Positions 1,986 to 31,736 of a stretch of 64,000 bases of DNA are shown piece after piece. The position numbers and the translations under genes were made by a program. Position 1 is the stretch's first letter, and every line of letters begins with the position of its first letter. Location of the stretch: the NCBI GenBank assembly GCA_024654025.1, contig JANLIR010000005.1, positions 1,174 to 65,173 on the forward strand. Reading direction: 5' to 3'. The notes below the pieces were generated by a model that had not been told where the DNA came from, searched no databases, and was given only the letters and a program-made list of their open reading frames with translations. Source of the stretch: Candidatus Wolfebacteria bacterium (GTDB taxonomy: Bacteria; Patescibacteriota; Minisyncoccia; UBA6257; UBA9933).

Positions 1986-2732
1986 ATGCATGAATTTAAA
2001 ATAAAAACAAAAGCTTTTTCAATATTGGAAGTGGTCATTTACATAACTATTTTTACGGCAGTTATCGGTTTAGTAATCGGAATATTTATAAGCACCGTCA
2101 AAATAGGAAACAGAGAAACCGCTTCGGCCGAAGTTACTAGCCAATTGAATTTTGTTTTGCAATATGTAGAGAGGTTAGCCAAGCAGTCTTCTAATTTTGA
2201 TATTGTATCTGGCACAACAACGTCGACTTTAAAACTAAGAATGCCAGCACCGTCTAGTAGTCCTACTTGTGTATTTCTTTCCGGCGGAGTTATTAAAATT
2301 GCCGGACCAGACGCATCAAATCGAAATTGTGATTTTGTGAACGCAACAAACCTAACTAACGGTAAAGTTACTGTTGATAGGTTAAATTTTACAAAAATAA
2401 CGTTTTATCCCGGCCACGACAATGTTTTAATTGACGTGCAATTAACATATAACAGCTCTGACCCTCAAAGCAGAGTAGTTAGAAGCTTGCAGTCGGCGAT
2501 TTCTCGAGTTTCAGCCGCCACTTTTGACGATAATTTACTCCCGGGAAGCGACAATACATTTGATTTTGGACTTACCGGCACGCGATGGAGAAACGGTTTA
2601 TTCTCTGGAAATTTACGGGCTGGTTCTGATTCTTCTCACGGTTTGATTTTGACTTCTCCTAACGGCACCTGTTATCGCCTTACGGTTAGCGATGCCGGGA
2701 CCTTATCTACGATTTCTATAACCTGTCCTTAA
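1986..2732 (+). CDS. type IV pilin-like protein
   Basis: N-terminus reads KAFSILEVVIYITIFTAVIGLVIG, i.e. A|FSILE with E at +5 and a hydrophobic helix. Confidence 0.6.
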   Translation: MHEFKIKTKAFSILEVVIYITIFTAVIGLVIGIFISTVKIGNRETASAEVTSQLNFVLQYVERLAKQSSNFDIVSGTTTSTLKLRMPAPSSSPTCVFLSGGVIKIAGPDASNRNCDFVNATNLTNGKVTVDRLNFTKITFYPGHDNVLIDVQLTYNSSDPQSRVVRSLQSAISRVSAATFDDNLLPGSDNTFDFGLTGTRWRNGLFSGNLRAGSDSSHGLILTSPNGTCYRLTVSDAGTLSTISITCP

Positions 2733-2845
2733 TAAAAAATAAAAACGGATATGGTTCGATCTATTTAATGTGGGGCGACGATAGTTATAATATCCACTTA
2801 TCTTTATTGACTTTTTATTCAAGATGCTTTAATTTATTACTTATT

Positions 2846-3187
2846 ATGAAATTTGCCGTAATCGAAACCGGGGGGAAACAATATAAAGTTTCTGCCGGAC
2901 AAAAAATAAAAGTTGAAAAAATAAAAACCTCCTCCAAAGGCGAGGCTCGTCAAGTACGACAAGAGGGTGAAATTTTTGTTTTTGACAAGGTTCTTTTGGT
3001 TTCAGAAGGGGATAAAACCGAGGTTGGAGCGCCTCATATTGATGGCGCTAAAGTGGAGGCAAAAATTTTAAAAAACAGCCGCGACAAAAAGAAAATTGTT
3101 TTCAAGTACCATTCCAAAACCCGTTATCGCAAGAAAAAAGGCCACCGCCAACACTTCACGGAAGTTGAGATAACCAAGATAACTTAA
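2846..3187 (+). CDS. rplU: 50S ribosomal protein L21
   Basis: Product begins MKFAVIETGGKQYKV..., a typical L21 N-terminus. I use the internal Met at 2846 rather than the upstream ORF start at 2768. Confidence 0.85.
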   Translation: MKFAVIETGGKQYKVSAGQKIKVEKIKTSSKGEARQVRQEGEIFVFDKVLLVSEGDKTEVGAPHIDGAKVEAKILKNSRDKKKIVFKYHSKTRYRKKKGHRQHFTEVEITKIT

Positions 3188-3190
3188 ATT

Positions 3191-3787
3191 CTAAATCCTT
3201 CGCTCTAGCGCTTGTCCGAGCGTGTCTTCATCGGCAAATTCGATTTCTCCGCCGGTCGGTATGCCTCTGCCGAGCCGGGTTATTTTTTTTGACAAACCTT
3301 GCAGTTCTTTGGAAATAAGCAGCGCATTCAAATCTCCATAGGTAGTCGGATTAATGCCGATAATTATTTCATCAATTTGCCCACCTCGATTTTTAATTAA
3401 ATTTTTTAAACTATTAAGCCGTAATTTCTGGGAGCTTTCCAAAACCCCGCTTTTAGTAAGCTCTCCCAAAATCAAATACTTGCCCGGATATTTTTTGGTT
3501 CGTTCAATCGAAATTAAATCCGTTTCTTTTTCGATAATCATCACAACGGTGTTTTTCCTGTTTTTATCTCGGCAAATATTACACAAATTATCGGAATTAG
3601 AGTGGATAAAAAAACACTCGGAACAAATTTTAATATTTTTCAAGTTGCCAACCGCTTTTGACGTTTCTTCAATGTTTGCTTTACCGCTATTTACCAAATG
3701 AAAAGCCAGTCTTGTGGCTTGCCGCGGACCGATTGAGGGCAACTTGGAAAACGTGTCAATAAAAAGTTTGATAGATTCGGGGTACAT
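3191..3787 (-). CDS. recR: recombination protein RecR
   Basis: Helix-hairpin-helix segment LPSIGPRQATRLAFHL, a C4 zinc finger (CSEC...CNIC) and a Toprim-type region. Confidence 0.9.
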   Translation of the reverse strand: MYPESIKLFIDTFSKLPSIGPRQATRLAFHLVNSGKANIEETSKAVGNLKNIKICSECFFIHSNSDNLCNICRDKNRKNTVVMIIEKETDLISIERTKKYPGKYLILGELTKSGVLESSQKLRLNSLKNLIKNRGGQIDEIIIGINPTTYGDLNALLISKELQGLSKKITRLGRGIPTGGEIEFADEDTLGQALERRI

Positions 3788-23316: not shown

Positions 23317-23712
23317 TTATATTATAATTTCCTTTATTTTCTTTCCAATTTCTTTTGGATCCGAATAAAAAATAATTGAAGCGGCAATTCCTTTAAGCGT
23401 GGTGGAAATTTCCGATCCGGATACCGCGATAACATAAATCGGCTTGTTTTTTGCGTACGCATATCCGGCCTCTATTCCTAATCCCGTTCCTTTTTCGGAA
23501 AATTCTAAAATTAAAATATCGCAATCATCTATTTGTTTGAAAGATAATCGCATAAGCTCTTTGGGAGAATATGTTTTATTACCCCAATCTTCAAAATCTC
23601 TAGCCATTATTACGGTCTCTATTCCGTTTTCTTTTAAAGACTCTGAGATATCTTCGATTAATTTTCTGTTTCTGCCGTCAGAATAAAATTTATGCGCTAA
23701 ATAAGCTTTCAT
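23317..23712 (-). CDS. nucleoside 2-deoxyribosyltransferase-like protein
   Basis: Small Rossmann-like protein with the GLGIEAGYAYAKNKPIYVI segment typical of the PF05014 family. Confidence 0.55.
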   Translation of the reverse strand: MKAYLAHKFYSDGRNRKLIEDISESLKENGIETVIMARDFEDWGNKTYSPKELMRLSFKQIDDCDILILEFSEKGTGLGIEAGYAYAKNKPIYVIAVSGSEISTTLKGIAASIIFYSDPKEIGKKIKEIII

Positions 23713-25501: not shown

Positions 25502-25754
25502 AAAAAATAGGCCTCCAGGCCGATAAAAAATAATTATAATACAACTTCAAAATTTAATCAAGGCTTATTTCTGCCTTATTTCCTCTGCGAGAAAATAAAG
25601 TAAGAGGTAAGAAAAGAGAATGCGATTAATCTTATCCGCAGATTAGTTAAACAATATATCTAATGAAATTGGCTCTGACATATTTTATAATATTTCGCTA
25701 CCGGGCTAGGCATTCCTACATTTTTAACGCAGAACCTTACGATTCCGCCCTGAG

Positions 25755-25825
25755 CTGCGGGGCTAGGACTCGAACCTAGATGACATGATTCAGAGTCATG
25801 TATCCTACCGTTAGATGACCCCGCA
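25755..25825 (-). tRNA. tRNA-Gln(CTG)
   Basis: On the minus strand: TGCGGGG-TC-ATCT-AACGGTA-GGAT-A-CATGA-CTCTGAA-TCATG-TCAT-CTAGG-TTCGAGT-CCTAG-CCCCGCA-G. U1:A72, anticodon CUG and U33 are all present. Confidence 0.8.
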
Positions 25826-25871: not shown

Positions 25872-26066
25872 TTAAAAACTTTCCCGTTTTATTGCTTCAG
25901 ATCGCGTAGCGTATTGTTCTTTATAAATAAGCATCCAAGGCTTTCTTCCGCTAGTATACCTGCATTTGCCTTTATTATGTTCGTCTACTCTTTTTACCAC
26001 ATTATCTGTTGAGCCAATATATCTATTATTATGACTTGAGCTTAAAATAACATAAACATAAAACAT
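25872..26066 (-). CDS. GIY-YIG nuclease-domain protein (YhbQ/UPF0213-like), possibly C-terminally short
   Basis: YVYVILSS..RYIGSTDNVVKRVDEHNKGK...SGRKPWMLIYKEQYATRSEAIKRE aligns across the GIY-YIG core. Confidence 0.6.
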   Translation of the reverse strand: MFYVYVILSSSHNNRYIGSTDNVVKRVDEHNKGKCRYTSGRKPWMLIYKEQYATRSEAIKRESF

Positions 26067-26084
26067 ATTAGAGCAGGGATTCTC

Positions 26085-26175
26085 CGCCGGAGGCCTCGCC
26101 TGAGGCGAGTGCGCCTTTGGCGCAGAACCTAGATGACATGATTCTTAGCCGGAGGCTAATGCGCCTTTGGCGCAA
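26085..26175. repeat. run of five GC-rich tri-loop hairpins (6-bp stems) including two copies of GCGCCTTTGGCGCA
   Basis: On the + strand: CTCCG-c-CGGAG, CTCGCC-tga-GGCGAG, TGCGCC-ttt-GGCGCA, TTAGCC-gga-GGCTAA and GCGCC-ttt-GGCGC. A 21-bp copy of the internal segment of tRNA-Gln sits among them. Confidence 0.5.
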
Positions 26176-26208
26176 GAGTCCATAGTGCTACCATTACACT
26201 ACCCGGCA
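26173..26208 (-). pseudogene. tRNA-like 5' half (acceptor, D-arm and anticodon region, homologous to the tRNA-Gln 5' half) with no adjacent 3' half
   Basis: Minus-strand TGCCGGGTAGTGTAATGGTAGCACTATGGACTCTTG aligns with the intact tRNA-Gln 5' half TGCGGGGTCATCTAACGGTAGGATACATGACTCTGAA. A plausible acceptor 3' strand CCCGGTA lies about 480 bp away at 25699-25705. Confidence 0.4.
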
Positions 26209-26265
26209 ATACGAATATTCTACTGAAAATTCAATTATTTTCAACCCTGCTTAGTACAATTGGAG

Positions 26266-26295: not shown

Positions 26296-26598
26296 AGTTG
26301 CCCACTTTTTTTATTGAAACAGCAACTAATAGCCATATAATAAAAAGGTAATATAAAACATTATATGCCACCAAATAAAACGAAGGCGCTAACGTCGAAA
26401 TTGAGTAGAGGTTCTGTTTTTTTTCTGGCAATAATAAAATCGGTATTTTTTTACGGGAGCCCATTTTGCGGGCTTTTTTGTTTCTCTAAAAATAAAATAG
26501 CGAAAAGATTTTTTAATTAAAGGTCGGGAAAAATCAATAAAATTAAAAAGGTCGAAAGATACAAAATAAAAGGTTGAAATAAATTAAACAATAAAACA

Positions 26599-27627
26599 AT
26601 GAATAAAAAAATTTTACTAAGCGTTAGCGCGATTGTTGCGATTGTGGCGGTTGCCGCCGTGGCAACAACAGCATACTTTTCCGATACGCAAACAGCGACC
26701 GGAAATACTTTTTCGGCTGGAACAATTGAAATGCAGGTTAATTGGGACAAAACAATTCCAATCCAACTGGCGGACATGAAGCCGAGCCAGGTTGGATATA
26801 CCAATTTTACGGTACTAAATGTTGGCAGCGATCCGATTAACGTAACCAAGGAAATAAACGTTACTAATCGGGAAACAGTTGACGTTAATCGGCCAGAATG
26901 TATTGCCGAAGGAGGACAATGGACTAATGGCGAATGTTCAAATAATACTTCGAAAAACGACATTGATTCTGTGCTCCAATACGATTTATCGGTAAAAGTT
27001 TACAACACAAGCAGTGTATTAGCATGGAATCAAACATTGCGCGACATGGACAAAACAGTGGCAGAGCTCCAAGGACAAAAAATGTTTCTTGGTATGATTC
27101 CATCTGGCTGGCATATGGATGTGGTTGAGAGCTATCACATGAAAAGCGAGGCCGGCAACGAATATCAAAGCGATAAAATAACTTTTAATATCGTTTTAAC
27201 GGGAGAACAACTAAAGGGTACGCTGGTTATGTCCAATAAAGACCCGAATCGTCCGGTTACAGACGGCTGGTTTGTTTTGGGAACCAAAACCGGAACATTA
27301 ACATACGGCGTAAAGGACTCAACATTTAATTATAGCTTTACAGGAACTGCTCCGTTGGCGAGTACAGGCTATTCCTTGGTTATGTATGAAGAGCCGTTTT
27401 CCACTCCCTCTGCTTCAGGTTGGCCGAGAACTGTTAAAATTCTTGGCGCGGGCACAACAGACGGAAGCGGAGACTTAACTCTTAACGGTAATCCTGATAC
27501 CGGCGATATGCTTAATGCCAAAATTTGGCTTGTAAAAACCTCTGACTTGGTTGGCAGCACATTGAGCGGTTGGACTCCGGCTGACTATCTGTTTGAGACA
27601 GGAATGATTGATTACTACAAGTCATAA
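26599..27627 (+). CDS. TasA/camelysin-like secreted protein with a SipW-cognate signal peptide
   Basis: N-terminus reads MNKKILLSVSAIVAIVAVAAVATTAYFSDTQTATGNTFSAGTIEM, matching the YFSDTE..GNTF.AG signature. Confidence 0.65.
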   Translation: MNKKILLSVSAIVAIVAVAAVATTAYFSDTQTATGNTFSAGTIEMQVNWDKTIPIQLADMKPSQVGYTNFTVLNVGSDPINVTKEINVTNRETVDVNRPECIAEGGQWTNGECSNNTSKNDIDSVLQYDLSVKVYNTSSVLAWNQTLRDMDKTVAELQGQKMFLGMIPSGWHMDVVESYHMKSEAGNEYQSDKITFNIVLTGEQLKGTLVMSNKDPNRPVTDGWFVLGTKTGTLTYGVKDSTFNYSFTGTAPLASTGYSLVMYEEPFSTPSASGWPRTVKILGAGTTDGSGDLTLNGNPDTGDMLNAKIWLVKTSDLVGSTLSGWTPADYLFETGMIDYYKS

Positions 27628-27785
27628 TGATGTTTGAAATCAAAGTTAGAATTTGATTTCTTTTTGGTTGCTTCATAGATCGCCAAGAAAATAAAAGGAA
27701 ATGAAGCAACCGATAAAAAAATCAAAACAAAGAAAAACTAAAGAAAAATAAAGGTCGGTGTAATAAATATAATTTCAATAACTCA

Positions 27786-28442
27786 ATGAAAAAATATATC
27801 GTTTTGGGAATAGTCTCTACTGTCGGGCTGGCGATTGCGACAATAGTTTTTGCCGGAAGTTTACAGCGTATTGATTTTGTAAATATCGGCAGTCCTTCGT
27901 CTGAAGCAAGCCATAATTTACAGGGCTGGGGAACCATTGAGCCGTTAACGAGCGGGGGAAATTGGGGACAAATTGGTTCGTCAGTAACCTGCGATTTGCC
28001 GGTTGGCGAAACATGCGACAAGGCGTTAAGAGTGACGTACGCGAAAGACGAACCCGACCATCCGCAAATAAACGGCAGAATGGCAAACGTTACGTTAAAT
28101 TCGCAAAACCGCTGGGGGCTTATAAAAGAATTGAAAATAAGAGCGCTGGACGGAATAGCCAATGACGATTTTATGGTCTTTATTAAAAACAAAAAAGGCC
28201 GTTTGGAATTGGTTTACACATATATTTCCGATCCCAGCACAGCTGAAATTTGGAAAGTCCACACAATCGCGCTTGACCATAAATATTGGTTCAATAAGGG
28301 GCCAATAGAAATAACTATTATGGCGACCGGCGACACATGGAACCAGCACAGCGCATACGGCCAGCTAGGAATCGATTGGATTGAATTGGCGGGGACAAAA
28401 GCTCCGTTTTCGCGCGACAAAAACAATAAGGACGCGGATTAA
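27786..28442 (+). CDS. hypothetical secreted protein (possible fibre accessory protein)
   Basis: Signal peptide with transmembrane anchor; lies between the tasA-like gene and sipW. Confidence 0.4.
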   Translation: MKKYIVLGIVSTVGLAIATIVFAGSLQRIDFVNIGSPSSEASHNLQGWGTIEPLTSGGNWGQIGSSVTCDLPVGETCDKALRVTYAKDEPDHPQINGRMANVTLNSQNRWGLIKELKIRALDGIANDDFMVFIKNKKGRLELVYTYISDPSTAEIWKVHTIALDHKYWFNKGPIEITIMATGDTWNQHSAYGQLGIDWIELAGTKAPFSRDKNNKDAD

Positions 28443-28451
28443 AAGCTGAAT

Positions 28452-28988
28452 ATGCGGTATATGAAAATTTTAAATATAATCTACTACGTTTTTTTAGTTT
28501 GCGCGGTCACGCTCATATTATTGCTTTTATTTTTTGTCCTTTCCGCAAACAGTAAAACGAAAATTTTAATTGTGCAGTCAGGCTCAATGGAACCGGCCAT
28601 AAAAACCGGAGGCATTGTTGTAATAAACCCGAATGACAATTATAAAGCAGGGGATATTATAACTTTCGGGAAAATCAGTAAAGTTGAAACTCCGACTACG
28701 CACCGCATCGTAAAAACAGAAATCAAAGATAATCAAATAATTTACATAACCAAAGGCGATGCCAATAACGGCACCGATTTAAGAGAAGTTAAAAAAAGCG
28801 ACATTGTGGGCAAAGTTATTTTCAGTTTGCCATACGCAGGATACGTAATTAATTTTTCTAAAAAACCGATTGTTTTCGTATTGTTATTATTAATACCAAC
28901 AGCGACAATTATTTACGAAGAAATTAAAAAAATAAGAAATGAAGTCGCCAAAAACAAAACAAAAACCAGCGAGGCAAAAGCGAATTAA
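28452..28988 (+). CDS. sipW: signal peptidase I, SipW type
   Basis: N-terminal transmembrane helix, catalytic SGSMEP motif, then a second conserved box around H in TTHRIV. Confidence 0.75.
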   Translation: MRYMKILNIIYYVFLVCAVTLILLLLFFVLSANSKTKILIVQSGSMEPAIKTGGIVVINPNDNYKAGDIITFGKISKVETPTTHRIVKTEIKDNQIIYITKGDANNGTDLREVKKSDIVGKVIFSLPYAGYVINFSKKPIVFVLLLLIPTATIIYEEIKKIRNEVAKNKTKTSEAKAN

Positions 28989-30174
28989 ATCAATTAAACC
29001 AGGTAAATCTAGATTATCGCCTCGCAAAAAGAAAGCGGAAAGCCCTGTTAAAATTCGGCAATTTTTAGTTAGCAGGAATAATTCAAAAGTTTTAGTTTTG
29101 GATATTTTAAAATCAAAGCCCGTGGCGCTGGTATTGCCGAAAGAAGAGAAAAGCCAATACATCGTACCAAATTATTCTCACGGACTTAGAAACTTTTTCT
29201 TTAAAACAACGCCGGCTGTTTTAATGGTTTTTTTACTTTCTATAAACTTTGCCGGGGCCAAAAGAACCTTCGCGGTCTTTAATGATTCCGACAGTTTATT
29301 GGCAAATAGCCTTGCAGCGGGGACATTGGAGTTTTCAGTGAATTCAGGCGGAGAACTTTTATTCGATTTAAAACCCGGAGAATCGCAAAAAAAAGATATT
29401 ATAATTACCAACAACGGGACTTTAAATTTTCAATATAATGTTGTCGTGGAAAATGTTTCCGACAACGGCAATTTGTGCGACAAGATTCAATCCTCGGTTG
29501 ATTTAAACGGTTCGCCGGTTTATTCGGGAAGTTTGATGAATTTTACGTCGGGCGATATTGTTTTTACCCCAAACGAACAGCGATGGACATTTAATGTTTC
29601 TTTGCCTTCGGAATCGGATAATTTGGAAAATAAAACTTGCCAATTCAAATTCGTATTTAACGGCCGGCAGGATAATTTACCGTCCGGTTTTGGCTTCAGC
29701 GATACTCAAAACATCCAAAGCAATTTTCAGGCGAATTATTGCGACCATTCGAACGGCAACGATCACAATCCTCATTATAAACATAAGGGCGACGAAGATG
29801 ATAACGATGAAAAAAATGAAGGGGATTGCGAACACCACAACAACCATAATGGAGGGGGAGGACATAAAGAAGATGGAGATGAAAACGAAGAAAATAATAA
29901 ACATGATTCGGAAAACACCGGAGAAAATTTAATATTAAGTTCTACTATTACACAACAAGAAGAGGCGTCCAGCACGACAGAAAAACAGGCTGAACCAGAA
30001 CAATCATCCATACCTAACGAGCCCACTTCTTCAACCGAAGAAACTAAAACTCCGCCAACAGATAATCAACCGCCAACAGAAACCGCAGAACAACCGCCGC
30101 AACCGCCCTTAGAAACTTTTGGGACTTCGGAAACGCCAACAGACACCCCGGTTGATAACACTGCGGGCGTATAA
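28939..30174 (+). CDS. TasA-like secreted protein with a His/Asp/Gly-rich region and a Pro/Thr-rich tail (start uncertain)
   Basis: Signal-anchor followed by AVFNDSDSLLANSLAAGTLEF, which is a SipW-cognate-like segment. C-terminal HNNHNGGGGHKEDGDENEENNKH and PTETAEQPPQPP low-complexity stretches. The annotated 5' end overlaps sipW. Confidence 0.5.
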   Translation: MKSPKTKQKPARQKRIKSIKPGKSRLSPRKKKAESPVKIRQFLVSRNNSKVLVLDILKSKPVALVLPKEEKSQYIVPNYSHGLRNFFFKTTPAVLMVFLLSINFAGAKRTFAVFNDSDSLLANSLAAGTLEFSVNSGGELLFDLKPGESQKKDIIITNNGTLNFQYNVVVENVSDNGNLCDKIQSSVDLNGSPVYSGSLMNFTSGDIVFTPNEQRWTFNVSLPSESDNLENKTCQFKFVFNGRQDNLPSGFGFSDTQNIQSNFQANYCDHSNGNDHNPHYKHKGDEDDNDEKNEGDCEHHNNHNGGGGHKEDGDENEENNKHDSENTGENLILSSTITQQEEASSTTEKQAEPEQSSIPNEPTSSTEETKTPPTDNQPPTETAEQPPQPPLETFGTSETPTDTPVDNTAGV

Positions 30175-30190
30175 TTTATTTTGTACAAAA

Positions 30191-30215
30191 AAAGGGCGTT
30201 TAGCGCCCCGTCTCT
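30191..30215. terminator. bidirectional intrinsic terminator (fmt on minus, tasA-like on plus)
   Basis: An A7 run, the hairpin GGGCG-TTTA-GCGCCC, and U-runs on the minus strand. Confidence 0.5.
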
Positions 30216-31310: not shown

Positions 31311-31736
31311 ATGAAATTTTTTATCGCATCGCCTTGGAAAAATAAAGAGCAAGTAGAAAAATTGACGGAAGAATTAAAAACCAAAGGGCATGACGTCTAC
31401 TCTTTTTTGGAAAGCGGAGAAAATCTTTTAACCGGCCACCCAATAGAAGAAGAAATGAAAGTCTATTGGGAAGCGCTTTCCAACTGGCAGAACGACAAAC
31501 GGATTTCCCAAATTTTTGAATCTGAAATAAACGGCCTAAAAGCCTGCGACGCTTTAATACTGCTCTTACCGGCAGGGGACTCGTCTCACGTTGAAGCCGG
31601 CATAGCGTATGGGCTCGGTAAAAAATTGTTTTTAATAGGAGCGATAAACAAGCCCGAAGTTGTGTATTTGATGTTTAATAAAATCTATATGGACATCACT
31701 TCTTTTCTCTCGGATCTGCCTAATATTTTCTCTTAA
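31311..31736 (+). CDS. nucleoside 2-deoxyribosyltransferase-like protein (paralogue of 23317..23712)
   Basis: FIASPW...ACDALILLLPAGDSSHVEAGIAYGLGKKLFLI. Confidence 0.5.
   Translation: MKFFIASPWKNKEQVEKLTEELKTKGHDVYSFLESGENLLTGHPIEEEMKVYWEALSNWQNDKRISQIFESEINGLKACDALILLLPAGDSSHVEAGIAYGLGKKLFLIGAINKPEVVYLMFNKIYMDITSFLSDLPNIFS

What the first reader, a model, noticed from the sequence alone, without database searches (positions are those of the whole stretch)
26599..30174. TasA/camelysin-like, accessory protein, SipW, His-rich TasA-like fibre locus
Two proteins carry the SipW-cognate signal-peptide signature: AYFSDTQTATGNTFSAGTIEM and AVFNDSDSLLANSLAAGTLEF. They flank a SipW-type signal peptidase (catalytic SGSMEP) and a secreted 218-aa protein sitting where TapA would be. 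This mirrors the Bacillus tapA-sipW-tasA biofilm-fibre operon, but here it is in what looks like a reduced-genome, possibly episymbiotic bacterium. The second substrate ends in a His/Asp/Gly-rich block (HNNHNGGGGHKEDGDENEEN, possibly metal-binding) and a Pro/Thr-rich stalk. This could be an uncharacterised extracellular fibre or attachment system.
Basis: partly seen in the sequence, partly recalled or inferred. Interest (0 to 1): 0.6.

Follow-up and report, generated by a model that had tools for sequence, protein, structure and literature searches.

The report
TasA-type fibre operon in a Wolfebacteria genome
This is a genuine four-gene operon for a TasA/CalY-type secreted fibre with its own SipW-type signal peptidase in a tiny candidate-phyla-radiation bacterium; it is a correctly spotted but fairly ordinary member of a known system, and public annotation already recognises part of it.

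Summary
Window 26599-30174 (+) carries four co-directional genes, here called A to D.

- **A (342 aa):** a TasA/CalY-family protein. It scores 39.8 bits on PF12389 and 29 bits on TIGR04088, and its model matches TasA 5OF2. It also has an extra C-terminal beta-sandwich of an undescribed domain family.
- **B (218 aa):** a secreted protein with a carbohydrate-binding-module-like jelly-roll fold and an ordinary signal peptide. It is neither TapA nor CapP.
- **C (178 aa):** an ER/archaeal (SipW-type) signal peptidase I with Ser45, His84 and Asp103/109 intact.
- **D (411 aa):** a second TasA-like protein. It has a long basic N-region, then a His/acidic block and a Pro/Thr-rich tail.

The window matches a Candidatus Wolfebacteria genome assembled from a metagenome, where GenBank already calls A a 'CalY family protein'.

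The A, peptidase, D order is conserved. Of 44 related loci that could be evaluated, 43 have the peptidase downstream and 32-34 have a D-like gene after it. B is optional (3 of 44), but when present it always sits between A and the peptidase.

Most likely mechanism, inferred and not shown: C cleaves A and D, exposing a conserved N-terminal strand that polymerises by donor-strand complementation. D would act as a minor subunit carrying a variable tail.

A 2022 survey already noted TasA homologues in Patescibacteria. This is a new member of a known kind, of modest interest.

The parts
26314..26341 (+). sigma-70-like promoter candidate upstream of A (TTGAAA-16-TATAAT)
   Evidence: 11 of 12 consensus matches. 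This is a consensus match only; such sites are not enriched in the region (6 found, 11.2 expected).
26599..27627 (+). Gene A: presumed major subunit, a TasA/CalY-family protein of 342 aa (GenBank MCR4275550.1, 'CalY family protein')
   Evidence: PF12389 39.8 bits; TIGR04088 29 bits. More than 280 mostly full-length homologues. AF2 model pLDDT 87.7. Foldseek match to TasA 5OF2: probability 1.00, TM-score 0.57 normalised to TasA.
26599..26673 (+). A residues 1-25: SipW-type signal peptide, with predicted cleavage after T-T-A25
   Evidence: Hydrophobic segment 1-30. T23 and A25 are invariant in 50 homologues. The cleavage site is placed by alignment to the TasA site A27|A28 (mature TasA = residues 28-261, PMC10151520). 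Inferred, not shown.
26674..26733 (+). A residues 26-45 (YFSDTQTATGNTFSAGTIEM): candidate donor strand
   Evidence: This is the most conserved 20-residue stretch of the family (entropy 0.73 against a mean of 1.52 bits). It aligns to TasA residues 28-47, which include F29 and F39 (PMC9674648). Residues 26-35 are disordered in the monomer model (residues 1-35 pLDDT <50); residues 37-45 are modelled as the first strand of the domain.
26704..27219 (+). A residues 36-207: TasA-like jelly-roll domain
27220..27624 (+). A residues 208-342: extra C-terminal beta-sandwich ('Ac' domain), an undescribed mobile extracellular domain
   Evidence: pLDDT is above 90. 373 representative proteins match at E<=1e-3, in stand-alone, tandem and T9SS-tailed architectures. 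No Pfam family and no PDB sequence relative.
27635..27712 (+). Two hairpins just after the stop codon of A; the first is followed by a U-run. Possibly a partial terminator or a stabiliser
   Evidence: MFE -27.1 kcal/mol, z = -2.58. The function is inferred.
27786..28442 (+). Gene B: secreted accessory protein of 218 aa with a CBM-like (galactose-binding-domain-like) jelly-roll fold and an ordinary Sec signal peptide
   Evidence: No curated family hit. Model pLDDT 85.9. Best folds are CBM6/35/4/29/32, the gingipain K2 adhesin and MAM domains. 11 of 44 homologues end in PEP-CTERM. Orthologues sit between A and the peptidase in 7 of 7 loci that have one.
28452..28988 (+). Gene C: ER/archaeal-type (SipW-type) signal peptidase I, 178 aa; catalytic Ser45, His84, Asp103/Asp109; N- and C-terminal membrane anchors
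   Evidence: TIGR02228 119.2 bits. Best solved relatives are SEC11C and SEC11A (E 2.9e-14), with SGSMEP, HR(I/V) and TKGD aligned.
28939..30174 (+). Gene D: second TasA-like protein, 411 aa (GenBank MCR4275553.1, 'hypothetical'); presumed minor subunit with a variable tail. Its start overlaps the 3' end of C by 50 nt
   Evidence: PF12389 28.6-31.1 bits. hhalign of the D family against the A family: probability 98%, E 1.6e-13. Best PDB match is the TasA fibre 8AUR.
28939..29202 (+). D residues 1-88: Lys/Arg-rich N-region (24 K+R, pI 11.2), predicted cytoplasmic
   Evidence: Basic N-regions of 7-95 aa are found in most of the 40 D-family ORFs examined. The true start codon has not been verified.
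29203..29274 (+). D residues 89-112: hydrophobic segment plus predicted cleavage site (…AKRTFA112|V113FNDSDS)
   Evidence: 17 of 30 D-family members hit TIGR04088; the window's own D does not at E<=0.01.
29275..29724 (+). D residues 113-262: TasA-like domain
29725..29913 (+). D residues 263-325: His/Asp/Glu/Asn/Gly-rich block. A conserved pair of Cys residues (268, 297) brackets its first half, and the HNNHNGGGGH run follows the second Cys
   Evidence: for composition. Composition and the Cys pair are conserved in the close homologues P0167 and P0168. More distant homologues carry LTD, LamG or fn3 tails instead.
29914..30171 (+). D residues 326-411: Pro/Thr/Glu-rich low-complexity tail
30193..30209 (.). 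GC-rich hairpin between the convergent genes D and fmt; a likely bidirectional terminator that ends the operon
   Evidence: called on the - strand, with a T-run.

Best explanation
This is a four-gene operon of a Candidatus Wolfebacteria (Patescibacteria) genome that builds a TasA/CalY-type extracellular fibre.

A and D are exported through Sec. The co-encoded SipW-type signal peptidase C then cleaves them, with predicted sites TTA25|Y26 in A and TFA112|V113 in D.

Cleavage frees a highly conserved N-terminal strand. Following the B. subtilis TasA mechanism, that strand would insert into the jelly-roll of the next subunit (donor-strand complementation), so that A polymerises into a filament. 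The extra C-terminal beta-sandwich of A would decorate the filament surface.

D is a low-copy TasA-like subunit that would start, end or co-assemble with the filament. It presents a lineage-variable tail, which here is a His/acidic block plus a Pro/Thr stalk. This resembles the roles proposed for TapA, AbpB or CalY.

B is an optional secreted lectin-like (CBM-fold) accessory specific to this cassette. It probably binds a glycan or the fibre itself.

What is shown: family membership of A, C and D; the fold of A and B; intact catalytic residues in C; conserved gene order. What is inferred: the cleavage sites, polymerisation, and the roles of D and B.
For: - **Family hits above curated cut-offs** for A, C and D.
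- **Fold of A:** the model matches TasA 5OF2/5OF1 (probability 1.00, TM-score 0.57/0.54 normalised to TasA). TasA is also the best PDB sequence match for both the A and D family profiles.
- **A and D are paralogues:** hhalign gives 98% probability, E 1.6e-13.
- **Peptidase C:** Ser, His and Asp align to SEC11A/C.
- **Candidate donor strand:** the mature N-terminus of A (residues 26-45) is the most conserved stretch of the family. Its first ten residues are disordered in the monomer model (residues 1-35 pLDDT <50). It aligns to the TasA donor strand, including the positions of F29 and F39 (PMC9674648).
- **Synteny:** 43 of 44 evaluable loci have the peptidase downstream of an A-like gene, and 32-34 have a D-like gene straight after it.
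- **B's position:** B orthologues sit between A and the peptidase in 7 of 7 loci that have one.
- **Link between B and A:** in P0146 a B-like domain is fused to the C-terminal domain type found in A.
- **Specificity:** only A and D in the 64-kb window carry the motif.
Against:
- Similarity to Bacillus TasA is remote: about 14% identity in the structural alignment, and 18.7 bits on the TasA equivalog model against a cut-off of 450.
- The window's own D does not reach TIGR04088 at E<=0.01.
- The start codon of D, and therefore its long basic N-region, is unverified.
- Whether C is a dedicated second peptidase or the cell's only signal peptidase I is unknown. No LepB-type motif occurs in these 64 kb, but that says nothing about the rest of the genome.
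- B has a different signal-peptide type and is dispensable in most cassettes.
Confidence: 0.65

Rival explanations
1. A and D are SipW-processed surface or secreted proteins that do not polymerise. They would act as monomeric or lattice-forming envelope proteins or adhesins that merely reuse the TasA jelly-roll. Their extra domains (the C-terminal domain of A, the tail of D) and protein B would do the actual binding.
For: - B. cereus CalY also acts as a cell-surface adhesin before it assembles into fibres (PMC13082335).
- A carries an additional domain that also occurs in many non-TasA surface proteins, including ones with T9SS sorting tails and Ig-like or fn3 repeats.
- Full-length A homologues occur in Dehalococcoidia and in archaea, which, from my own knowledge, have proteinaceous envelopes.
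- No polymerisation evidence exists for this lineage.
Against: - The strongest conservation in the A family lies in the mature N-terminal strand, not in the added domain. That is what a donor-strand mechanism predicts.
- The same strand motif is kept in the otherwise divergent paralogue D.
- Every structurally characterised member of the family (TasA, AbpA) forms donor-strand filaments (PMC9674648, PMC9245690).
Confidence: 0.22
2. A and D are camelysin-type (MEROPS M73) cell-envelope metalloproteases rather than structural proteins.
For: The Pfam family name (Peptidase_M73, 'Camelysin metallo-endopeptidase') and the 'CalY family' label. D has a His-rich block that could bind metal.
Against: - Neither A nor D contains an HExxH or comparable zinc motif within the TasA-like domain (read directly from the sequences).
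- The His-rich block lies outside the conserved domain and is replaced by unrelated domains in homologues.
- The fold is a jelly-roll like the structural protein TasA.
Confidence: 0.03
3. B is the functional TapA or CapP equivalent: a chaperone or nucleator required for polymerisation of A. This is the reading implied by the first reader.
For: B sits between A and the peptidase in 7 of 7 loci that have it. A B-like domain is fused to the C-terminal domain type of A in P0146. Non-homologous locus-encoded helpers exist in both Bacillus systems (PMC10151520, PMC13082335).
Against: - B has no hit to TapA (TIGR04087) or to CapP's DUF4047.
- It has an ordinary signal peptide and no TasA-like N-terminal strand.
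- Its fold is CBM-like, and TapA is absent from the top 50 structural matches.
- It is absent from 41 of 44 cassettes, including the closest relative L010, so it cannot be generally required.
Confidence: 0.1

Closest known systems
Bacillus cereus sipW-tasA-capP-calY biofilm filament locus (PMC4292775; PMC13082335)
   Same: Both have one SipW-type peptidase, two TasA-family paralogues (a major fibre former and a second subunit that co-assembles or acts as an adhesin), no TapA, and one small secreted locus-specific accessory between the paralogues.
   Different: - Gene order differs: here A-B-peptidase-D in a single co-directional block.
- The accessory is not homologous. B has a CBM-like fold, whereas CapP has DUF4047 plus repeats.
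- A has an extra C-terminal domain.
- D has a long basic N-region and a low-complexity tail.
- Sequence identity to the Bacillus proteins is very low, and the host is a Patescibacteria cell with a reduced genome.
Bacillus subtilis tapA-sipW-tasA operon; TasA fibre 8AUR, TasA monomer 5OF1/5OF2 (PMC9674648; PMC10151520)
   Same: Both have a SipW-type peptidase gene embedded in the operon. The substrates share the (T/G)xA|(A/Y/V)F(N/S)D…N/T-F-x-(A/S)-G-T motif. The major subunit has a jelly-roll fold. The candidate donor strand aligns to TasA residues 28-47.
   Different: There is no TapA homologue. The second substrate here is itself TasA-like. The TasA equivalog model is far from met (18.7 bits against 450), and the Bacillus SipW equivalog model is below its cut-off (101.5 against 190).
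Archaeal bundling pili AbpA/AbpB of Pyrobaculum calidifontis (PMC9245690)
   Same: Both have a TasA-like major subunit that polymerises by a donor strand. Both also have a larger adjacent protein with extra distal domains, which the AbpA/AbpB authors describe as the archaeal counterpart of TapA and propose as initiator and adhesin. That is the role suggested here for D.
   Different: The ABP operon has no dedicated peptidase. AbpA is recognisable only by profile or structure comparison, whereas A and D hit PF12389 directly.
Clostridium perfringens SipW-dependent matrix protein BsaA (NCBIfam TIGR04090; own knowledge plus the title of PMC11580942)
   Same: It is another SipW-dependent polymerising matrix protein family. 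4 of 30 D-family members give weak hits to TIGR04090.
   Different: The window's own proteins do not hit TIGR04090. BsaA polymers are reported to involve intermolecular isopeptide bonds, for which there is no evidence here.

Membership tests
TasA/CalY family (Pfam PF12389 Peptidase_M73) | Match to the family HMM above the curated gathering score | tested here: met
   A scores 39.8 bits and D 28.6 bits (31.1 for the isolated domain) against a cut-off of 22.5. 21 of 30 D-family members also match.
TasA/CalY family | SipW-dependent-type signal peptide (NCBIfam TIGR04088) - protein A | tested here: met
   29 bits against a cut-off of 19, residues 10-43.
TasA/CalY family | SipW-dependent-type signal peptide (TIGR04088) - protein D | tested here: inconclusive
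   The window's D gives no TIGR04088 hit at E<=0.01, but 17 of 30 D-family members do. The motif TFA|VFNDSDSLLANSLAAGTLEF is visible and was picked up by the regex scan.
TasA/CalY family | Jelly-roll fold superposable on solved TasA | tested here: met
   For A: Foldseek against 5OF2 gives probability 1.00, TM-score 0.57 (normalised to TasA) and rmsd 4.5 Å over 213 columns. D was not modelled; its homology to A is supported by hhalign at 98% probability.
TasA/CalY family | Encoded next to a SipW-type signal peptidase gene | tested here: met
   C lies between B and D. 43 of 44 related loci keep the peptidase downstream of the A-like gene.
TasA/CalY family | [quoted passage not shown] | not testable with these tools
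   There is indirect support only. Residues 26-45 are the most conserved stretch. The first ten of them are disordered in the monomer model (residues 1-35 pLDDT <50). The stretch aligns to the TasA donor strand.
B. subtilis TasA orthologue (NCBIfam NF046066, equivalog) | Score above the equivalog cut-off (450 bits) | tested here: not met
   D scores 18.7-20.4 bits and A is not listed. These are distant family members, not TasA orthologues.
ER/archaeal-type signal peptidase I (NCBIfam TIGR02228; SipW/SEC11 type) | HMM score above the cut-off | tested here: met
   119.2 bits against 51.85, covering positions 3-157 of the 158-position model.
ER/archaeal-type signal peptidase I | Catalytic Ser and His (plus Asp) conserved | tested here: met
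   SGS45MEP, H84R and TKGD103…D109 align with the SGSMEP, HR and TKGDNN..DD segments of SEC11C/SEC11A. The assignment of catalytic roles in SEC11A comes from my own knowledge.
Bacillus SipW orthologue (NCBIfam NF046067, equivalog) | Score above the equivalog cut-off (190 bits) | tested here: not met
   101.5 bits. C is of SipW type but is not a Bacillus SipW orthologue.
TapA (NCBIfam TIGR04087 YqxM_for_SipW) - protein B | HMM match; SipW-type signal peptide with a TasA-like N-terminal strand; Ig-like fold | tested here: not met
   B has no NCBIfam hit at E<=1. Its signal peptide is ordinary and lacks the motif. The fold search returns CBM, adhesin and MAM jelly-rolls, not TapA.
CapP (B. cereus BC1280; Pfam DUF4047) - protein B | DUF4047 domain | tested here: not met
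   No DUF4047 hit at E<=1. The CapP architecture is taken from PMC13082335.
MEROPS M73 metalloprotease activity ('camelysin') | A zinc-binding catalytic motif | tested here: not met
   No HExxH motif in A or in the TasA-like domain of D (sequences). Enzymatic activity itself cannot be tested here.

The most novel reading that the evidence does not exclude
The A, SipW-type peptidase, D cassette, which is conserved across many Patescibacteria lineages, may encode a second surface filament alongside type IV pili. This donor-strand TasA-type fibre would have a decorated shaft (the undescribed C-terminal domain of A). Its minor subunit would carry swappable tails: LTD, LamG, fn3, or here a His/acidic plus Pro/Thr module. 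Together with the optional CBM-like lectin B, it would mediate attachment of these episymbionts to host cells or to a matrix.
Probability: 0.25. Interest if true: 0.6.

Novelty: new member of a known kind. Interest (0 to 1): 0.33.

Why it matters
Candidate-phyla-radiation bacteria are thought to depend on physical attachment to other cells, yet their surface structures are barely characterised. A conserved, compact TasA-type fibre cassette with a self-contained processing peptidase is therefore a tractable target for heterologous expression and cryo-EM.

The cassette would also extend donor-strand TasA fibres from Firmicutes and archaea to Patescibacteria. The analysis additionally flags two uncharacterised extracellular modules: the C-terminal domain of A and the B family.

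As a discovery, however, it is incremental. The family assignment is already made by standard annotation, and the phylum-level presence is published.

Tried and rejected
**Analyses that could not be run**
- No multimer prediction was possible, because both structure-prediction jobs went on the A and B monomers.

**Searches that gave too little**
- The word-index homology search for D found only 3 proteins. The D family was instead assembled by tblastn from the fetched loci.

**Checks that found nothing relevant**
- An Rfam E-value scan of the long region upstream of A found no riboswitch or leader, only a sub-threshold tRNA hit.
- ARAGORN with intron search did not call the tRNA-like remnant at 26067-26210.
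- A diversity-generating retroelement lies 3 kb upstream of the A homologue in L007. Its variable and template repeats map to an unrelated gene, not to the TasA cassette.
- A motif search for a LepB-type peptidase in the window found none. This says nothing about the rest of the genome.
- The flanking genes are housekeeping: TypA/BipA, Dus, fmt, def, SOD and an S41 protease. No functional link to the operon was found.

**Readings considered and rejected**
- The metalloprotease reading.
- The JGI label 'ribosomally synthesized peptide with SipW-like signal peptide', which is a naming artefact of TIGR04088.

Full report
**1. Observation**

The region 26599-30174 holds four co-directional + strand ORFs exactly as described. 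I call them A to D.
- A: 26599-27627, 342 aa.
- B: 27786-28442, 218 aa.
- C: 28452-28988, 178 aa.
- D: 28939-30174, 411 aa. Its start overlaps the 3' end of C by 50 nt.

Three proteins of the locus are identical to GenBank entries from one 70.8-kb contig of a Candidatus Wolfebacteria genome assembled from a metagenome. A is MCR4275550.1, 'CalY family protein'. B is NUV83_02250 and D is MCR4275553.1, both 'hypothetical'. The 'reduced-genome, possibly episymbiotic' guess is therefore right at phylum level (Patescibacteria, also called the candidate phyla radiation or CPR).

The flanking genes are housekeeping: TypA/BipA, tRNA-Gln and a GIY-YIG ORF on one side; fmt, def and SOD on the other.

**2.

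- A hits PF12389 (Peptidase_M73/camelysin) at 39.8 bits against a cut-off of 22.5. It hits the SipW-cognate signal model TIGR04088 at 29 bits against 19.
- D hits PF12389 at 28.6 bits, or 31.1 bits for the isolated domain.
- C hits the ER/archaeal-type signal peptidase I model TIGR02228 at 119.2 bits against 51.85. It hits the Bacillus SipW equivalog model at 101.5 bits, which is below that model's cut-off of 190.
- B hits nothing.

C's best solved relatives are the human SEC11C and SEC11A subunits (E 2.9e-14). SGS45MEP, H84R and TKGD103...D109 align to the corresponding SEC11 segments. C also has hydrophobic anchors at both ends. None of the stated refutation criteria is met.

The pattern is not chance. 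Among the ORFs of at least 80 aa (from 2312 mechanical ORFs in the window), only A and D carry the F-(S/N)-D...N-x-(F/L)-x-A-G-T motif.

**3. Protein A**

More than 280 mostly full-length homologues (~340-360 aa) exist. Some are labelled 'TasA family protein [Candidatus Pacebacteria]'.

An AlphaFold2 model built from a 50-sequence alignment is confident (pLDDT 87.7, pTM 0.82) except for residues 1-35. It has two beta-rich domains.
- **Residues ~36-207** match the TasA monomer 5OF2/5OF1: Foldseek probability 1.00, TM-score 0.57/0.54 normalised to TasA, rmsd 4.5 Å over 213 columns. The family profile's best PDB sequence hits are the TasA fibre 8AUR and the monomer 5OF1. They align both the N-terminal strand region and the last strand, N-x-x-Q-G...F...Q.
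- **Residues 208-342** form an extra beta-sandwich with no Pfam family and no PDB sequence relative.

A full-library HMMER search shows that this C-terminal domain is a mobile extracellular module. 373 representative proteins match at E<=1e-3. They include stand-alone proteins, tandem copies in secreted proteins (P0178, P0205), and combinations with T9SS sorting tails, HYR, Ig-like or fn3 domains.

**4. The N-terminal strand**

In the A family, T23 and A25 (positions -3 and -1 of the predicted cleavage site) are invariant. The following residues 26-45 (consensus YFSDTETSTGNTFTAGTIDI) form the single most conserved 20-residue window. Their entropy is 0.73 bits, against a family mean of 1.52.

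In B. subtilis, TasA residues 28-38 form the donor strand that inserts into the next subunit, with F29, I32 and F39 making the hydrophobic contacts (PMC9674648). In the profile alignment the A segment lines up with TasA residues 28-47, and F27 and F38 fall at the F29 and F39 positions.

The first ten residues of this segment (26-35) fall in the part of the monomer model with pLDDT below 50 (residues 1-35). That fits a strand needing a partner, but it is not proof.

**5. Protein D**

D has five parts.
- Residues 1-88: a Lys/Arg-rich N-region with 24 K+R and pI 11.2.
- Residues 86-104: one hydrophobic segment.
- The motif ...AKRTFA|VFNDSDSLLANSLAAGTLEF.
- Residues ~113-262: a TasA-like domain.
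- The tail: a His/Asp/Glu/Asn/Gly block (263-325; 9 His, 19 Asp+Glu), whose first half is bracketed by two Cys residues (268, 297), then a Thr/Pro/Glu-rich stretch (326-411).

I assembled 40 D-like ORFs from related loci and aligned 30 of them.
- The family profile aligns to the A family from the signal peptide through to the last strand: hhalign probability 98%, E 1.6e-13.
- Its best PDB hit is again TasA 8AUR.
- 21 of 30 members hit PF12389 and 17 of 30 hit TIGR04088. The window's own D does not reach TIGR04088.

Across the family the N-terminal domain is constant and the tail varies between 70 and 700 residues. The tails include lamin-tail (LTD), laminin-G and fn3 domains. The close relatives P0167 and P0168 keep the His/acidic composition, the Cys pair and the Pro/Thr stretch.

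Most family members also have basic N-regions of 7-95 residues before the hydrophobic segment. This is unusual for a signal peptide and remains unexplained.

**6. Protein B**

B has an ordinary Sec-type signal peptide and no SipW-type motif. It has no hit to TapA (TIGR04087) or to DUF4047, the domain found in B. cereus CapP.

Its model (pLDDT 85.9) matches galactose-binding-domain-like jelly-rolls. The best matches are the gingipain K2 adhesin domain, CBM6/35/4/29/32 carbohydrate-binding modules and MAM domains, all at probability 1.00 and with TM-scores up to 0.58 normalised to the target. TapA is not among the top 50.

Eleven of 44 homologues end in a PEP-CTERM sorting signal. One homologue, P0146, fuses a B-like domain to the same C-terminal domain type found in A.

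**7. Synteny**

A scan of GTDB species representatives returned 80 loci. Most are from Patescibacteria lineages: Paceibacterota, Parcubacteria, and Nealson-, Moran-, Jackson-, Shapiro-, Gribaldo- and Portnoybacteria. A few are from Dehalococcoidia and archaea.

Across these and the earlier loci, 52 carry a two-domain A-like gene, and 44 of those have at least 1.5 kb of downstream sequence. Among these 44:
- 43 have a C-like peptidase downstream on the same strand. In the one exception, the peptidase is upstream.
- 32 have a D-like domain straight after the peptidase by BLAST, rising to 34 when the motif is also counted.
- Only 3 have B between A and the peptidase.

The closest relative, L010 (A 78%, C 86%, D 88% identity), lacks B. 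Yet every B orthologue whose context I could read sits in that same slot: the window, L009, L016, L021, L090, L091 and L092.

The core cassette is therefore A, peptidase, D, with B as an optional cassette-specific accessory. Many relatives add one or two further secreted proteins (Pur_ac_phosph_N/fn3-like, CAP) after D. In the window the operon ends at D, against the convergent fmt gene and a shared hairpin.

Two hairpins follow the stop codon of A, the first with a U-run (z = -2.6). They might attenuate read-through so that A is made in excess. This is speculation.

**8. Mechanism: what is shown and what is inferred**

Shown:
- A and D are TasA-family paralogues.
- C is an intact SipW-type peptidase.
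- A has the TasA fold.
- The three genes are inherited together.

Inferred from the Bacillus and archaeal precedents (PMC9674648, PMC10151520, PMC9245690):
- C cleaves A and D at the conserved site.
- The freed N-terminal strand of A polymerises by donor-strand complementation.
- D is a low-copy initiator, terminal or co-assembling subunit that displays a variable tail.
- B is a lectin-like accessory.

The metal-binding idea for the His/acidic block is plausible from its composition, but it is untested.

**9. Comparison with known systems**

The best described parallel is B. cereus sipW-tasA-capP-calY. It has two TasA paralogues that co-assemble, no TapA, and a non-homologous locus-encoded helper (PMC4292775, PMC13082335).

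The B. subtilis tapA-sipW-tasA operon shares the peptidase, the signal motif and the fold, but its second substrate, TapA, is not TasA-like.

The archaeal AbpA/AbpB pair shares the logic of a major subunit plus a larger TapA-counterpart protein with extra distal domains, but it has no dedicated peptidase.

A and D fail the Bacillus equivalog models, so they are distant family members and not orthologues.

**10. Novelty and score**

PF12389 homologues in Patescibacteria were already noted in a 2022 survey (PMC9245690), and NCBI's pipeline already names A. Four literature searches found no paper that characterises such a locus in CPR bacteria.

The CPR-specific features are, as far as I can tell, undescribed. 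These are the extra domain on the major subunit, the modular tails and basic N-region on D, and the CBM-like accessory. They are variations on a known theme.

I rate this as a new member of a known kind, with interest about 0.33. There is a 0.25 chance that it is a CPR-wide attachment fibre, which would be worth roughly 0.6.

Noticed in passing
window 26067-26210 (- strand): A tRNA-like remnant that ARAGORN does not call; Rfam gives a sub-threshold tRNA hit of 22.7 bits against a cut-off of 29. It shares 'aacctagatgacatgattc' with the neighbouring tRNA-Gln(CTG) at 25754-25825. It contains a ~50-62-nt two-copy direct repeat built of GC hairpins (tgcgcctttggcgca at 26110-26124 and 26160-26174). 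It looks like a duplicated tRNA gene that has decayed or been interrupted by small palindromic insertions.
   Followed up: partly
window 28939-29202 (D residues 1-88); also the D-like ORFs in L001, L007, L008, L017, L038, L055, L078: D-family proteins carry Lys/Arg-rich, predicted cytoplasmic N-regions of 7-95 aa ahead of the signal-anchor segment. The gene often overlaps the 3' end of the peptidase gene. This is unusual for a cleaved signal peptide, and its purpose is unknown.
   Followed up: partly
window 27220-27624 (A residues 208-342): An undescribed ~130-aa extracellular beta-sandwich domain with the motif ...YSLIYY.DPWPG...AKIWLV.S.D...GW.P..YLFE. 373 representative proteins match at E<=1e-3, including tandem-repeat proteins and proteins with T9SS tails. 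It has no Pfam family and no solved relative.
   Followed up: partly
B-family homologues P0156, P0157, P0161, P0163, P0146, P0148-P0155: Distant B homologues end in PEP-CTERM sorting signals. Others of ~300 aa seem to carry two B-like modules. P0146 fuses a B-like module to the C-terminal domain type found in A.
   Followed up: partly
window 26455-26477 (+): A terminator-like hairpin (GGGAGCCC...GGGCTTTT plus a T-run) lies ~120 nt upstream of the A start codon and downstream of the best promoter-like site (26314-26341). It could be a leader or attenuator, or the terminator of an unannotated transcript. No Rfam family matches.
   Followed up: partly
L007 1656-1787 and 2157-2288, with bAvd at 2335-2682 and RT ORFs at 2687-3774: A diversity-generating retroelement lies 3 kb upstream of the A homologue in this relative. 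Its 132-nt variable/template repeat pair (92% identity) targets the 3' end of an unrelated 304-aa gene, not the TasA cassette.
   Followed up: yes
L001 2656-4254; L091 1-1412: Secretin-domain (PF00263) genes lie just upstream of the TasA-type cassette in two relatives; in L001 an 820-aa protein with a weak LysM hit also precedes the secretin gene. No such gene is found near the cassette in the window.
   Followed up: no
window 23317-23712 (-) and 31311-31736 (+): Two small nucleoside 2-deoxyribosyltransferase-family paralogues (131 and 141 aa) lie on either side of the locus, a few kb away.
   Followed up: no
window 25872-26066 (-); L009 4656-4919: A 64-aa GIY-YIG-domain ORF sits beside the tRNA genes upstream of A. 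A GIY-YIG ORF also lies upstream of the A homologue in L009.
   Followed up: no
window ~38000-64000: GC skew turns steadily negative from about 38 kb to the end of the window (cumulative skew falls from -0.08 to -2.10). Nearly all long ORFs there are on the - strand.
   Followed up: no
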